Assembly: GCA_963713855.1 (NCBI GenBank)
Contig: OY970209.1
Coordinates: 384,001-448,000 of the forward strand
Direction: 5' to 3'
Origin: an uncultured bacterium
GTDB lineage: Bacteria > Babelota > Babeliae > Babelales > Babelaceae
Length of the DNA stretch: 64,000 nucleotides
The position numbers are program-made. Every line of letters begins with the position of its first letter. The first letter of the stretch is position 1. Of this stretch, positions 39,001 to 42,000 are shown one piece after another.

Positions 39001-42000
39001 GAAAGCCATATTTCTAACGGTGCCCGGCAATCCTCAGCTTTCTGGCTATGTACATGATTTACCACTAAGCAATTATGGCTCCCCCTATATAACCATTAAC
39101 GAGGAAAACAACGCAATTGCAGGTTACTCTGGTGTAACCTAGCTCCATTTTGATACCTTCTATCCAATAAGGGGGTGATTTTTTTGTTCATTTTCAAAAC
39201 ATTGTTGCGTGCTTAAAGCTGTCACATCTATCGCCTGTGTTAAAAGGCGTGGTGCATGTAATTCAAGGCCGAGTTGAATAATAAGATCTATAAATTCCAT
39301 TGGCCTTAGTCCCCATTCTGCAGCTTGATGAAATAAGCACGTTGCGGGTGTAAGTCCTGGAAGCGTGTTGAGTTCCAAAACGATGACACGGTCAGTTTTT
39401 GTGGGGCTCATAGCGGCCGATTGATAAAAGCAATCGATTCGCGCGTATCCGGCGCAACCTGTCACTTTATAGGTATCTTCTATTGTTTTTAATACTAGCG
39501 TTGTTGCAGTTGCCGGTATCGGTGCCGGTGTTTGGTTTTCCCCTGCACCTGGCAAAAACTTTTCTTCTATAGACAAAACACCAGCTTGCGCAACTGTCAT
39601 GCTCGGTGGTAATGCTCGGCAGATACTATTACCCACAACTCCGACACTCAGCTCCAAACCTTCAATGCACTCTTCTATTAGTACCGCATTTTTGCCCGCA
39701 CCAAACACTTCATTAATCGCTTTTTTAAGCGCTGAAGCATTGGTAACTTTTGCGACCATAACGCTGCACCCGTCATCATGCGGTTTTACAATAAGGGGGA
39801 AGGGCGGCAAGCCGTGCTTTTCGGGATCATTATGCCACTCTTTCGCTTCAATAAGTACACCCGCTGGTACAGGTATACCGTGCTCTTTTAAAACTTGTTT
39901 TGTTTTCCATTTATCCATACAAAGAGCGCTTGCAAGAACGCCTGAGCCGTTATAAGGTATGCCGAGCGTTTCCAGTAATCCTTGTATAGAGCCGTTTTCG
40001 CCATGTCCTCCGTGCAACGCTACGAATGCAAAATCGATAAGATTCGGTAAGTCTTGCCAAGAGATTTTCATTGAAGAGGTAAGCTCAGCTTCTATCTCAG
40101 CAGTTGTGTTACGCACCAGCAGTCGTTGGTCGATGCAAAACAATTCTAAGTTTGAGCTTAAGAATAGCGGGATAGCCGCATATTTTTGTGGAGAAAGCTT
40201 ATAAATCACATTCCGCCCGGAGGCAAGAGAAATTTCTTTTTCGTTTGATTGGCCGCCTAAAAGAATACCAACGCGCATTTTTTTTGCGTCTGTAATTTTA
40301 GTGTCGTGTTTTAGGTTTTCTGCATTTTTAAGCATAGTGTACGTATGTAATTCGGTGGCTATAAGGTGGTTGATAAATTGGGTATGGCTCATATTTATCT
40401 CGGCCGCTTGCAGGAATGCAAGACTTGCTGGATCCATGCCAGAAAAAGTATTTGGGTCAATAATAACGACCCGATTATCATGTGTCAAAATACCATCAAT
40501 GCGTCCCAAGTTGTGTATACTCAAGGCTGACATAACGCGAAGGCATGTGTCTTTAATACGCTGCTCGGCTTCTTTTGTGCATCGTGCCGGTGTACGTTTT
40601 AAAGTTTTACCAGGCATGTATTTCTGCTCGTAATCAAAAAAGTCAGATCCCTCATTCAGGACTATCTCAGTTGGAGGAAGCGGTAAAAGAGTTTTTTTAG
40701 CGTAATCGGTAATGACAATGCACGAAAATTCCATGCCGCGTACATATTCTTCTATAAGCACTTTTTGCTGTATTCCCGGTGTGATAGTTCGTGCTTTTAT
40801 GATAGCACTTTGTAGTTCATGTTCGTTTTTTACCACGGTTATACCTAAGCTCGATCCCTCATGGCAAGGCTTTACGATGCAGGGAAATCCAAAAGGTGGC
40901 GTAGAAATGTTTTTATCATAAGGCTCGACGATAACTGCGTTTGGAACATCGATGTTTGCAGATTTTAAAAAAGTCCGCTGCATCACTTTGTCCATGCTTA
41001 GAGCGCTTGAAAATACTTTGGATCCGAAATAGGGGATGCCAAGAATTTCAAGAAAGCCTTGTATCGATCCATCCTCCGCGTACCTTCCATGCTGAGCTAT
41101 ATACATAAAATCAATGATCTGCTTAAGTGCATCCCATGCAACCGGCTCGGCTTCAGCTTCGAGCCGATGTTCAAAGTCACTTGTTTTACCGCGGTGCAAA
41201 AAATGGATTGGCATTTTATAGAGAGTGCCCGTTTTTGTTTGAAAAAGGGGAACAACGCGATAGCACGAGGTATCAAGATGATCGCACACCGTTCTTCCAG
41301 AATTCAATGAGACTTCGCGTTCTTGAGATTTACCACCCATAAGAACGCCAATGCGTAGACTGTGCATGCTTATTTTTTCTTCCATGAAAGATATACTCAA
41401 AAAGTGTATCATCAACATATGTAGTGTCACAAGAAAAAACTTGTGAGTATTTGCTTCCACTTGTTACTCTATAAATCGATAAAGAACATAAGGATTTTTT
41501 GTAATGCTTCCCGACACTCTTTTTTGGATAGATTTGGAAATGACAGGGTTAGATCCTGATCGCGACACTATTATCGAAATTGCAAGTGTGGTAACGCAAA
41601 GTACTCTCGAATTTATCGCGCAAGGGCCTTCCTTTGTGATTCATCAACCTGACTCCATTCTTGATGCCATGGATGACTGGAATAAAAATCAGCACAGAAA
41701 ATCAGGCCTATGGTCCCAAGTACAAGCGTCCACCGTGACGTTACCTCAGGCATACGAGGCCACCTTAGCTTTTGCGACTCAGTACTGTAGACCTCGTATT
41801 ACGCCAGTATGCGGAAACTCCGTATACCAAGATCGTGCATTTTTAAGAAGACTCATGCCAGAGCTTGATCGCTATTTCCATTACCGGATCATCGATGTCA
41901 CCACGGTTAAAGAACTCGTACGTCGCTGGTATCCAAAAGATAAGTGTGTTTACTTTGAAAAAAGCACCGACCACAGAGCACTTTCAGATGTATATGCTTC

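What a model noticed while it worked through the whole genome (the two positions that open the first line are those of the whole stretch)
39160..41385. Covalent tandem D-Ala-D-Ala ligase with two differently specialised active sites (Tyr-type + Phe-type)
The only Ddl (g00400, 741 aa) is a head-to-tail fusion of two complete D-alanine--D-alanine ligase modules (res 11-342, 371-704). Module 1 has the omega-loop Lys-Tyr (DYEQKYMPG) but Asp for the second Mg-binding Glu and SGM for PGM (IIDPNTFSGM); module 2 has canonical ExNTLPG but Lys-Phe (EEKFLPGAG), the Tyr-to-Phe change linked to D-Ala-D-lactate formation in DdlB mutants and Leuconostoc ligase (recalled). The module-specific signatures hold in 11 of 11 Babelales genomes from 10 families, so the homodimeric enzyme has become a fixed intramolecular heterodimer, possibly making two kinds of peptidoglycan termini. 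A DdpX/VanX-type dipeptidase (g00451) is present.
Evidence so far: Pfam Dala_Dala_lig_N + _C twice. PDB phmmer: half 1 best 3r23_A E 3e-40 (36 chains), half 2 best 3r23_A E 4e-40 (34 chains). Match in 29 of 31 sampled Babelales, mostly single open frames of 736-847 aa, split in G083. Motif table for this genome + 10 relatives: KY 11/11, DPN[TS] 11/11 in module 1; KF 11/11, E.NTLP 11/11 in module 2. g00451 best hit E. coli DdpX 4e-34, VanX 3e-19; no D-lactate dehydrogenase family in pfam.tsv. Paper search on tandem/duplicated Ddl: nothing relevant in the listing.
(Added by a program. Inside this text positions count along the whole contig: contig position 384,001 is position 1 of the stretch shown here. 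"Call 12" and the like, gene names such as g00115 and contig names such as C1 are that model's own, and its searches are not shown. The text may have been shortened before it was handed on; [...] marks where a part breaks off. The agent that wrote the report below was given it as the finding of a first reader that could run no searches.)

Follow-up and report, generated by a model that had tools for sequence, protein, structure and literature searches.

The report
Two-module D-alanine ligase, unequal sites
This gene really does encode two different D-alanine-D-alanine ligase units in one protein, but it is an ordinary member of an old two-unit ligase family found in several bacterial phyla, with a double ligase also reported in plants, and what the altered second unit makes is still untested.

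Summary
Observation confirmed. Window 39160-41385 (minus strand) is one 741-aa ORF with two complete Ddl modules (34% identical) and is the only Ddl in this 1.52-Mb genome. Module 1 keeps Ser150/Tyr216 (E. coli DdlB numbering) but has Glu270->Asp. Module 2 keeps Glu270 but has Ser150->Cys, Tyr216->Phe, Tyr210->Leu, Ser281->Thr and Leu282->Cys. Both keep every ATP, Mg and catalytic residue and are about equally conserved.

This is not a Babelales invention. The same module-specific signature holds in Patescibacteria-type and Bacteroidota-type tandem ligases, including cultured Hymenobacter and Pontibacter, where I found no other full-length Ddl match. A tree puts all first modules in one clade and all second modules in another. 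Papers describe plant DDL as a fusion of two DDL enzymes. This scan has already reported tandem Ddl on at least seven other genomes.

Structure predictions support a Ddl-like pseudo-dimer within one chain. A "two peptidoglycan termini" system is not supported: I found no D-lactate dehydrogenase, one MurF, and a VanX-type dipeptidase in only 27 of 61 Babelales genomes.

Best reading: the housekeeping D-Ala-D-Ala ligase, an obligate heterodimer-in-one-chain. The chemistry of the second site is open.

The parts
39160..41385 (-). Tandem Ddl-Ddl gene, 741 codons plus stop (39160-39162); the only Ddl locus of the genome
40336..41364 (-). Module 1 (residues 8-350): complete Ddl with dipeptide-type Ser178/Tyr256 (DdlB Ser150/Tyr216) and Asp310 in place of Glu270
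40291..40335 (-). Inter-module linker (residues 351-365, MLKNAENLKHDTKIT). pLDDT falls to 76-78 over residues 351-370. Natural split forms break in the region between the modules.
39238..40290 (-). Module 2 (residues 366-716): complete Ddl with altered substrate subsite (Asp538, Cys540, Leu604, Phe610, Thr682, Cys683) and canonical Glu671/Asn673
39163..39237 (-). C-terminal tail (residues 717-741). Low confidence in the model (pLDDT under 50 for 727-741) and mostly outside the matches to orthologues.
40618..40623 (-). Module 1 omega-loop Lys255-Tyr256 (DdlB Lys215-Tyr216)
   Evidence: Tyr in 30/30, 118/118, 120/120
40450..40458 (-). Module 1 Asp310-Pro311-Asn312 (DdlB Glu270-x-Asn272): Glu->Asp at a Mg ligand
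   Evidence: Asp in 30/30, 118/118, 120/120
39763..39768 (-). Module 2 Cys540-Ser541 (DdlB Ser150-Ser151): Ser->Cys
   Evidence: Cys in 30/30, 118/118, 120/120
39556..39561 (-). Module 2 omega-loop Lys609-Phe610 (DdlB Lys215-Tyr216): Tyr->Phe
   Evidence: Phe in 30/30, 118/118, 120/120
39367..39375 (-). Module 2 Glu671-Leu672-Asn673 (DdlB Glu270-x-Asn272), canonical
39337..39342 (-). Module 2 Thr682-Cys683 (DdlB Ser281-Leu282, which I recall as the D-Ala2 carboxylate site)
   Evidence: Thr in 30/30, 118/118, 120/120

Best explanation
The gene encodes this Dependentiae bacterium's only, housekeeping D-alanine-D-alanine ligase. It belongs to an ancient two-module Ddl family that is the resident Ddl of Dependentiae, many Patescibacteria and many Bacteroidota. 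By architecture it matches the published plant DDL.

The two modules are old paralogues. They pack against each other through the same helix pair in each module, as a Ddl homodimer would, so one chain is a permanent heterodimer.

Both modules keep the whole ATP-grasp catalytic set, so both most likely turn over (inferred). Module 1 has the Ser150/Tyr216 pair that the literature links to strict D-Ala-D-Ala synthesis, and it feeds the single MurF (inferred). Module 2 has an invariant rebuilt substrate pocket (Cys150, Leu210, Phe216, Thr281, small residue at 282).

I commit to this reading: the physiological output of the whole enzyme is D-Ala-D-Ala, and module 2 is a kinetically or regulatorily different, possibly relaxed-specificity, second site. 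I do not think it is a dedicated producer of a second kind of peptidoglycan terminus.

Shown: the architecture, the residues, their conservation and the phylogeny. Inferred: catalysis at both sites, the products, and the pseudo-dimer.
For: Architecture and family scores.

Sole Ddl: the two Dala_Dala_lig_C matches in this ORF are the only ones in the genome.

Peptidoglycan pathway present: MurF at 381.7 bits plus three other Mur-ligase matches, and three transpeptidase matches.

Catalytic residues: Glu15, His63, Lys97, Lys144, Ser151, Glu187, Lys215, Arg255, Asp257 and Asn272 are kept in both modules in 30 of 30 orthologues. The same pattern holds in 118 resolved of 120 Dependentiae-type proteins and in 120 of 120 Patescibacteria-type proteins.

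Equal constraint: mean pairwise identity of module 1 vs module 2 is 0.62/0.65 (Dependentiae-type), 0.73/0.60 (Patescibacteria-type) and 0.67/0.67 (Bacteroidota).

Tree: the module 1 clade has SH-aLRT 98 and the module 2 clade 97, with the same sub-clades in each.

Resident Ddl elsewhere: 80 Bacteroidota loci, including cultured Hymenobacter and Pontibacter, carry the signature. In 5 such genomes no other match reaches the end of the Ddl_C model.

Link to the D-Ala branch: natural fusions occur of the tandem to a Mur ligase, and to a Mur ligase plus alanine racemase. The five Babelales genomes without Ddl also have no or one Mur_ligase_M match.

Literature: moss DDL knock-out and the D-Ala-D-Ala pentapeptide precursors (PMC9954125 and PMC9434261, passages read). 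Ser150/Tyr216 are conserved in Ddls that make only D-Ala-D-Ala (PMC7691350, passage).

Pseudo-dimer: AF2 mean pLDDT 92.0 and pTM 0.90. The two-chain model gives ipSAE 0.85 vs best control 0.40; this mark was reached by 116 of 157 solved complexes and 2 of 215 mismatched pairs; runs agree in at least 94% of contacts; partner pLDDT is at least 86. The interface is symmetric: residues 102-116 and 124-142 of module 1 against 461-474 and 483-502 of module 2.
Against: - There is no enzymology for any member of the family in the papers I could search.
- Module 1's Glu270->Asp sits at a Mg ligand and its effect is unknown.
- Module 2 lacks both Ser150 and Tyr216. The cited literature links loss of these residues to depsipeptide synthesis (PMC5996685 abstract; PMC7691350 passage). 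A second product is therefore not excluded.
- The structure and complex predictions can pass from memory of solved Ddl homodimers, and one control reached 0.40.
- I could not obtain a plant DDL sequence. Whether plant DDL is the same family with the same signature rests on the published architecture, on the Atlas neighbour cluster and on earlier unchecked notes of this scan.
- The tree used the quick method with only seven canonical single-module Ddls as outgroups.
Confidence: 0.6

Rival explanations
1. One reading: module 2 is a dedicated second-specificity ligase (D-Ala-D-lactate or another D-Ala-D-X). The cell would then make two kinds of peptidoglycan precursor termini, or another D-Ala-containing product.
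For: Module 2 has Phe at DdlB position 216 and has lost Ser150 (Cys instead). Both are invariant across three lineages. PMC5996685 (abstract) says Phe versus Tyr decides depsipeptide versus dipeptide activity. PMC7691350 (passage) says DdlB gained weak D-Ala-D-Lac activity with Y216F and S150A, the residues of the Leuconostoc ligase. Positions 281/282, which I recall as D-Ala2 carboxylate contacts, are also changed. The module 2 omega loop is among the best conserved stretches of the family (invariant L604, E608, K609, F610, G613, G615, N617, T619, P620 in 68 sequences).
Against: - I found no D-lactate dehydrogenase of the 2-Hacid_dh family.
- There is a single MurF.
- All D-Ala-D-Lac and D-Ala-D-Ser NCBIfam models score far below their cut-offs (e.g. 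NF000206 298.6 vs 550; NF000207 285.9 vs 520).
- The VanX-type dipeptidase is unlinked, starts with a hydrophobic signal-like segment, and is found in only 27 of 61 Babelales genomes.
- A second alanine-racemase paralogue occurs in only 3 of 61 genomes.
- The same enzyme is the only full-length Ddl match in ordinary cultured Bacteroidota.
- Moss, whose DDL has the same architecture, accumulates D-Ala-D-Ala pentapeptide (PMC9434261 passages).
Confidence: 0.2
2. One module is a catalytically silent structural or regulatory partner, a pseudo-enzyme half. It would be either module 1, weakened by Glu270->Asp, or module 2, lacking the Glu-Ser-Tyr triad. Only one site would make dipeptide.
For: Each module carries one departure at a residue normally invariant in Ddl (E. 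coli DdlA and DdlB, VanA and three other single-module Ddls all have Glu270 and Ser150). Rare family members are degenerate in one or both modules: P0411 in module 1 (Trp at 144, Ile at 150) and P0484 in both.
Against: All ATP, Mg and catalytic residues other than those named are invariant in both modules across hundreds of sequences from three lineages. The two modules are equally constrained. Silent halves normally lose such residues (general knowledge). Asp for Glu keeps the carboxylate.
Confidence: 0.13
3. The fusion is an artefact: an assembly or frameshift error joining two adjacent ddl genes.
For: In G022, G033 and G039 the two modules lie in separate, adjacent or overlapping frames.
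Against: The window ORF is one uninterrupted frame. Of the 55 matching Babelales genomes (61 searched), 44 match over both modules as one stretch, 3 of them with a single in-frame stop. Four more match as two stretches in one 771-802-aa frame. There are 1517 database proteins of 407-1297 aa at E<=1e-20, and the best 120 are all 714-809 aa.
Confidence: 0.01

Closest known systems
Plant/moss DDL (Physcomitrium PpDDL, Arabidopsis At-DDL)
   Same: [quoted passage not shown] It is tied genetically to D-Ala-D-Ala supply for plastid peptidoglycan. PpDdl is reported closest to bacteria of the Fibrobacteres-Chlorobi-Bacteroidetes group (PMC9434261), the lineage in which I find the ~900-aa tandem form. 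The nearest Atlas cluster to the window protein (score 0.99, 738 aa) has Streptophyta as the commonest phylum among the 6 members with a known phylum.
   Different: The window protein is bacterial, shorter (741 aa) and lacks a transit peptide. I could not obtain a plant sequence, so shared ancestry and the module-specific residues in plants are untested here. The papers I read say nothing about differences between the two halves.
Bacteroidota (~860-950 aa) and Patescibacteria (~790-830 aa) tandem Ddl
   Same: Same module order, the same module-specific residues and co-diverging module clades. In the 5 Bacteroidota genomes checked no other full-length Ddl match was found.
   Different: They are 31-42% identical to the window protein and carry large insertions. 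Some have extra C-terminal domains: Mur ligase, alanine racemase or PASTA. All are annotated only as D-alanine--D-alanine ligase or hypothetical protein.
Single-module homodimeric Ddl (E. coli DdlB 2dln/1iov, T. thermophilus 6u1f, B. anthracis 3r23)
   Same: Each module has the same fold and catalytic set. Foldseek's best hit is 6u1f_A at E 2.3e-29 with target TM-score 0.90. phmmer's best hit is 3r23_A at about 3e-40 for each half. The predicted module-module interface uses equivalent helices of both modules.
   Different: Here there are two non-identical active sites in one chain. Module 1 has Asp for Glu270. Module 2 lacks Ser150 and Tyr216.
Phe-type D-Ala-D-lactate ligases of lactic acid bacteria (Leuconostoc LmDdl2, 1ehi) and VanA/VanB
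   Same: Module 2 has Phe at the omega-loop position and no Ser at position 150, like LmDdl2 as described in PMC7691350.
   Different: Similarity is weak (1ehi_A 8.2e-22 vs 3.3e-40 for the best ordinary Ddl). The NCBIfam D-Ala-D-Lac models are far below cut-off. Module 2 has Cys, not Ala, at position 150. I found no VanH-type dehydrogenase. In the tree VanA groups with E. coli DdlA, outside both module clades.
Chlamydial MurC-Ddl fusion
   Same: It is another peptidoglycan-pathway fusion involving Ddl. The NCBIfam model NF011171 matches module 2 (236.7 bits).
   Different: The score is far below the cut-off of 1015. The partner there is MurC, not a second Ddl. What I know of the chlamydial enzyme's activity is recalled, not from a call.

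Membership tests
[quoted passage not shown] | Dala_Dala_lig_N + Dala_Dala_lig_C domain pair | tested here: met
   Both domains are present twice (PF01820 168.5 bits, PF07478 227.6 bits, 2 stretches each).
[quoted passage not shown] | Score over the curated family cut-off | tested here: met
   NF002378 483.7 vs 243; TIGR01205 452.7 vs 245.65; NF002528 436.4 vs 262. These are scores for the whole two-module protein.
[quoted passage not shown] | ATP/Mg/catalytic residues Lys97, Lys144, Glu180, Glu187, Lys215, Arg255, Asp257, Glu270, Asn272 (DdlB numbering; residue roles recalled) | tested here: inconclusive
   Module 2 has all of them. Module 1 has all except Glu270, which is Asp310.
[quoted passage not shown] | Glu15-Ser150-Tyr216 triad of strict dipeptide ligases | tested here: inconclusive
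   Met in module 1 (Glu22, Ser178, Tyr256). Not met in module 2 (Glu382, Cys540, Phe610).
[quoted passage not shown] | [quoted passage not shown] | not testable with these tools
   Inferred only. It is the sole Ddl in a genome that has MurF, other Mur ligases and PBPs.
Two-module (tandem) DDL family | Two complete Ddl modules in one polypeptide, first Ser/Tyr-type, second Cys/Phe-type | tested here: met
   The same pattern holds in 118/118 resolved Dependentiae-type proteins, 120/120 Patescibacteria-type proteins, 74/79 diverse representatives complete at the 7 sites, and 80/80 Bacteroidota loci. In one search the Cys is by construction, because the search pattern contained it.
Two-module (tandem) DDL family | Each module orthologous to the corresponding module of the other lineages | tested here: met
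   Tree of 70 rows: module 1 clade SH-aLRT 98 and module 2 clade 97, with the same sub-clades in both (quick method, few outgroups).
Two-module (tandem) DDL family | Sequence relationship to the published plant DDL | not tested
   No plant sequence could be fetched with the tools left. The link rests on the architecture from PMC9954125, the Atlas neighbour cluster and earlier scan notes.
D-Ala-D-lactate ligases (VanA/B/D..., LmDdl2) | Score over the curated NCBIfam cut-offs | tested here: not met
   NF000206 298.6 vs 550; VanA 240.1 vs 775; VanB 216.8 vs 750.
D-Ala-D-lactate ligases (VanA/B/D..., LmDdl2) | Non-Tyr residue at omega-loop position 216 (Phe in the lactic-acid-bacteria type) | tested here: met
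   Module 2 has Phe610. The rule is from the PMC5996685 abstract.
D-Ala-D-lactate ligases (VanA/B/D..., LmDdl2) | A D-lactate source (VanH-type 2-hydroxyacid dehydrogenase) and a linked VanX | tested here: not met
   The only over-threshold 2-Hacid_dh_C match is a Gnd-like dehydrogenase. The VanX-type gene is 59 kb away and is found in 27 of 61 Babelales genomes. Other D-lactate routes were not searched.
D-Ala-D-serine ligases (VanC/E/G) | Score over the curated NCBIfam cut-offs | tested here: not met
   VanG 354.6 vs 495; NF000207 285.9 vs 520; VanC 241.4 vs 650.

The most novel reading that the evidence does not exclude
The conserved Cys150/Phe216/Thr281 site of module 2 is a dedicated second-specificity ligase, making D-Ala-D-lactate, D-Ala-D-X or another D-Ala conjugate. 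In that case the sole 'Ddl' of Dependentiae, many Patescibacteria and many Bacteroidota, and perhaps plant plastids, would be an obligate heterodimer that makes two products. These organisms' cell-wall precursors, or another D-Ala pool, would then be more complex than assumed.
Probability: 0.2. Interest if true: 0.75.

Novelty: new member of a known kind. Interest (0 to 1): 0.42.

Why it matters
Ddl is a textbook homodimeric antibiotic target (D-cycloserine), and its Tyr/Phe switch underlies vancomycin resistance. A large and old group of bacteria uses instead a fixed heterodimer in one chain. Its second site lacks the two residues that the literature treats as the mark of strict D-Ala-D-Ala synthesis.

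None of the papers I could search describes or explains this asymmetry. The plant literature still debates whether half of At-DDL is functional (PMC9954125).

The same enzyme occurs in cultured, harmless Hymenobacter and Pontibacter species, so the question can be tested directly at the bench. For this particular window the gene is simply the organism's housekeeping Ddl. The scan has already reported the same thing on other genomes.

Tried and rejected
- Artefact or frameshift fusion: rejected.
- Recent Babelales-specific duplication: rejected by the shared signature and the tree.
- Van-like reprogramming cassette: no VanH-type gene, and VanX is unlinked and patchy.
- Second D-amino-acid supply through a second alanine racemase: this genome has two Alr paralogues, but only 3 of 61 Babelales genomes have two matches and 29 of 61 have none. 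It is not a partner of the tandem enzyme.
- Closest single-module relatives of module 2: the best 120 hits were fragments or split forms of the same Dependentiae tandem. This gave no independent single-module family.
- Of the 12 single-length representatives, 5 carry the module 1 signature, 3 the full module 2 signature, one is module-2-like but with Ser150, 2 are partial module-2-type fragments, and only one (P0455) is canonical.
- Fetching a plant DDL sequence failed. The supplement of PMC9954125 holds no sequence text. Three cluster look-ups named only bacterial members, plus one unnamed UniParc entry.
- Paper searches for Dependentiae + peptidoglycan + D-alanine found 0 papers. Searches for tandem, fused or heterodimeric Ddl turned up nothing on two unequal modules. 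These searches cover only the held library.
- Foldseek against single PDB chains cannot show the inter-module arrangement, and no coordinates were available to me.
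Full report
**1.

Window 39160..41385 on the minus strand is one uninterrupted ORF of 741 codons. An upstream GTG would add 25 residues, but orthologues align only from about residue 6-9. Pfam finds Dala_Dala_lig_N and Dala_Dala_lig_C twice each. 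The NCBIfam Ddl subfamily models pass their cut-offs, while every D-Ala-D-Lac and D-Ala-D-Ser model stays far below its own.

The halves are 34% identical to each other (BLASTP 4e-62). The two Dala_Dala_lig_C matches in this ORF are the only ones in the 1.52-Mb, single-contig genome, which is 91% complete.

The neighbours are unrelated to the cell wall: RuvA, a DUF3175 protein, three small unassigned ORFs, an RNase T-family exonuclease, a NUDIX hydrolase, two unassigned paralogues and PriA.

**2. Active sites**

I aligned both modules of the window protein and of 29 Babelales orthologues to E. coli DdlB, taken from the K-12 record, and read off the DdlB positions (window numbering).

- Both modules keep Glu15, His63, Lys97, Lys144, Ser151, Glu187, Lys215, Arg255, Asp257 and Asn272 in 30 of 30 sequences.
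- Module 1 keeps Ser150 and Tyr216 (Ser178, Tyr256) and always has Asp for Glu270 (Asp310).
- Module 2 keeps Glu270 (Glu671). It always has Asp for Glu148, Cys for Ser150 (Cys540), Leu for Tyr210, Phe for Tyr216 (Phe610) and Thr for Ser281. It has Cys for Leu282 in 27 of 30.
- E. coli DdlA and DdlB, VanA and three other single-module ligases all have Ser150 and Glu270.

**3. This is not a Babelales peculiarity**

Within the order, 55 of 61 sampled genomes match, and 78 of 81 in a second, phylum-level sample. Of the 55:

| Form | Genomes |
|---|---|
| One match spanning both modules (3 with a single in-frame stop) | 44 |
| Two matches inside one 771-802-aa frame | 4 |
| Partial match (query residues 7-624) in a 671-aa frame | 1 |
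| Split into adjacent or overlapping frames (G022, G033, G039) | 3 |
| Divergent form, 31% identical (G025, G057) | 2 |
| Fragment only | 1 |

The divergent form turned out to be the Patescibacteria type. Its best 120 database relatives are 764-837 aa, and those with names are Parcubacteria-group lineages.

A search of 1.84 billion representatives returned 125 proteins of 650 aa or more among its best 150. They included a group of roughly 860-950 aa. That group is the Bacteroidota form. A genome-collection scan with its profile matched at least 600 stretches. The best 80 are almost all Cytophagales, Sphingobacteriales or Chitinophagales, including cultured Hymenobacter, Pontibacter and Solirubrum species. 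Two titles are odd: one names Akkermansia and one names Saccharibacteria.

The module-specific residues hold throughout:

| Set | With the signature |
|---|---|
| Dependentiae-type proteins | 118 of 118 resolved (2 of 120 could not be split by my script) |
| Patescibacteria-type proteins | 120 of 120 |
| Diverse representatives complete at the seven sites | 74 of 79 |
| Bacteroidota loci | 80 of 80 |

For the representatives, 39 of the 125 proteins of 650 aa or more could not be split and 7 were partial. The exceptions are P0362, P0411, P0449, P0478 and P0484. For the Bacteroidota loci the Cys is by construction, because the search pattern contained it. The other sites are not by construction.

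A tree of 27 first modules, 27 second modules, 10 single-length relatives and 6 canonical ligases puts all first modules in one clade (SH-aLRT 98) and all second modules in another (97). The same Patescibacteria, Bacteroidota and Dependentiae sub-clades appear in each. The two clades together (98) sit apart from E. coli DdlA, VanA and DdlB (quick search, few outgroups). The pair of paralogues and their specialisation therefore predate these lineages.

**4. It is the resident Ddl, tied to the D-Ala branch of peptidoglycan synthesis**

- The genome has MurF (381.7 bits), three further Mur-ligase matches and three transpeptidase matches.
- In five Bacteroidota genomes the only Ddl_C matches that reach the end of the model lie in the tandem ORF. 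The other matches are partial, in frames of 311-1186 aa that I did not identify.
- Some family members are fused further, to a Mur ligase (P0457), to a Mur ligase plus alanine racemase (P0475), or to a PASTA domain.
- The five Babelales genomes with no Ddl by family search have no Mur_ligase_M match (genus g20) or only one (g22).

**5. One chain, a Ddl-like dimer**

AlphaFold2 on a 68-sequence alignment gives mean pLDDT 92.0 and pTM 0.90. Confidence dips only at the linker and the C-terminal tail. Foldseek's best single-chain match is T. thermophilus Ddl 6u1f_A (E 2.3e-29, target TM-score 0.90).

Folded as two chains, the modules score ipSAE 0.85 against a best control of 0.40. That mark was reached by 116 of 157 solved complexes and 2 of 215 mismatched pairs. 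The runs agree in at least 94% of contacts, and the partner pLDDT is at least 86. The interface is pseudo-symmetric: residues 102-116 and 124-142 of module 1 against 461-474 and 483-502 of module 2.

Ddl homodimers are solved, so this pass may come from likeness. It shows that the modules look like a Ddl dimer, not that they bind. The natural split forms show that the modules can be made separately.

**6. What the second site might do**

The literature I read says two things. [quoted passage not shown] Ser150 and Tyr216 are conserved in Ddls that make only D-Ala-D-Ala, and DdlB gained weak D-Ala-D-Lac activity with Y216F and S150A, the residues of the Leuconostoc ligase (PMC7691350, passages).

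Against it:
- I found no 2-hydroxyacid dehydrogenase family member. The one over-threshold match is a Gnd-like 6-phosphogluconate dehydrogenase next to a 453-aa ORF that I read, without a family search, as glucose-6-phosphate dehydrogenase.
- There is a single MurF.
- The VanX/DdpX-type dipeptidase lies 59 kb away and scores just below the DdpX cut-off (165.8 vs 176). It starts with a hydrophobic, signal-like segment. It is found in only 27 of 61 Babelales genomes.
- The same enzyme serves ordinary Bacteroidota.
- Moss, whose DDL is published as a fusion of two DDL enzymes, accumulates the usual D-Ala-D-Ala pentapeptide (PMC9954125 and PMC9434261, passages).

Neither module looks relaxed. Mean pairwise identities are 0.62 vs 0.65, 0.73 vs 0.60 and 0.67 vs 0.67 in the three lineages. 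Across the 68-sequence alignment, module 2 has more invariant columns than module 1, including most of its omega loop.

**7. Verdict**

The gene is a real, conserved two-module Ddl and the organism's housekeeping D-Ala-D-Ala ligase. It is a member of a known architecture: it is published for plants and widely annotated in bacteria. This scan has already reported it on at least seven other genomes. Those notes gave me the plant lead, which I checked in the papers but could not check at sequence level.

My searches did not find in print the strict, family-wide asymmetry of the two active sites. That asymmetry is a genuine open question and can be tested in cultured Bacteroidota.

I put 0.6 on "both sites active, physiological product D-Ala-D-Ala". 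I put 0.2 on a dedicated second specificity, 0.13 on one silent half and 0.01 on an artefact.

Noticed in passing
window 37652-39142 (+): Three consecutive small paralogous ORFs (128, 122 and 162 aa) with hydrophobic, signal-like N-termini and a shared motif pattern. None has a Pfam family.
   Followed up: no
window 42491-44816 (-): Two adjacent paralogous ORFs of 410 and 395 aa that are closely similar over most of their length. Neither has a Pfam family.
   Followed up: no
own genome, L037 (C1:533306-533959) and L038 (C1:189287-189955): There are two alanine-racemase paralogues (411 and 376 aa). The second scores 170.5 bits on the alr model (cut-off 168) and equally on a VanT serine-racemase model. 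Across Babelales only 32 of 61 genomes have any Ala_racemase_N match and 3 have two, although 55 of 61 have the tandem Ddl. The D-Ala source of many of these bacteria is therefore unclear.
   Followed up: partly
own genome: No Asp_Glu_race (MurI) match was found in this 91%-complete genome. One class IV aminotransferase is present (L050) and could supply D-Glu from D-Ala.
   Followed up: no
P0457, P0475, P0377, P0391, P0407, P0484, P0510 (database proteins): Some tandem Ddl proteins carry further C-terminal domains: Mur ligase M+C (1262 aa); Mur ligase plus alanine racemase (1638 aa), which puts a large part of the D-Ala branch in one chain; or a PASTA domain (1224-1337 aa). P0484 is degenerate at active-site positions in both modules.
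   Followed up: partly
L039 (G025:C5) and L040 (G057:C11): Two Babelales genomes carry the Patescibacteria-type tandem Ddl (812-826 aa, 31% identical to the window protein). I found no Dependentiae-type copy with this query. This suggests lateral replacement or a binning error.
   Followed up: partly
G016, G051 (genus g20); G018, G036, G052 (genus g22): These Babelales genomes (84-98% complete) have no Ddl by family search and no (g20) or only one (g22) Mur_ligase_M match. This suggests loss of most of the peptidoglycan precursor pathway in two families.
   Followed up: partly
L041 (G033:C1) 791-3063; L042 (G022:C1) 655-2878: In these genomes the two modules lie in separate overlapping frames (386+387 aa and 368+382 aa) that break between the modules. 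Each keeps its own signature motifs in the printed translations. This is either natural gene fission or a frameshift. Single-length proteins with module 1 or module 2 signatures also occur at 40-44% identity.
   Followed up: partly
L034 1414-2073 (-) = contig 484395-484895 region: The VanX/DdpX-type M15 dipeptidase (219 aa) begins with a hydrophobic, signal-like segment. That would place it outside the cytoplasm, unlike VanX as I recall it.
   Followed up: no
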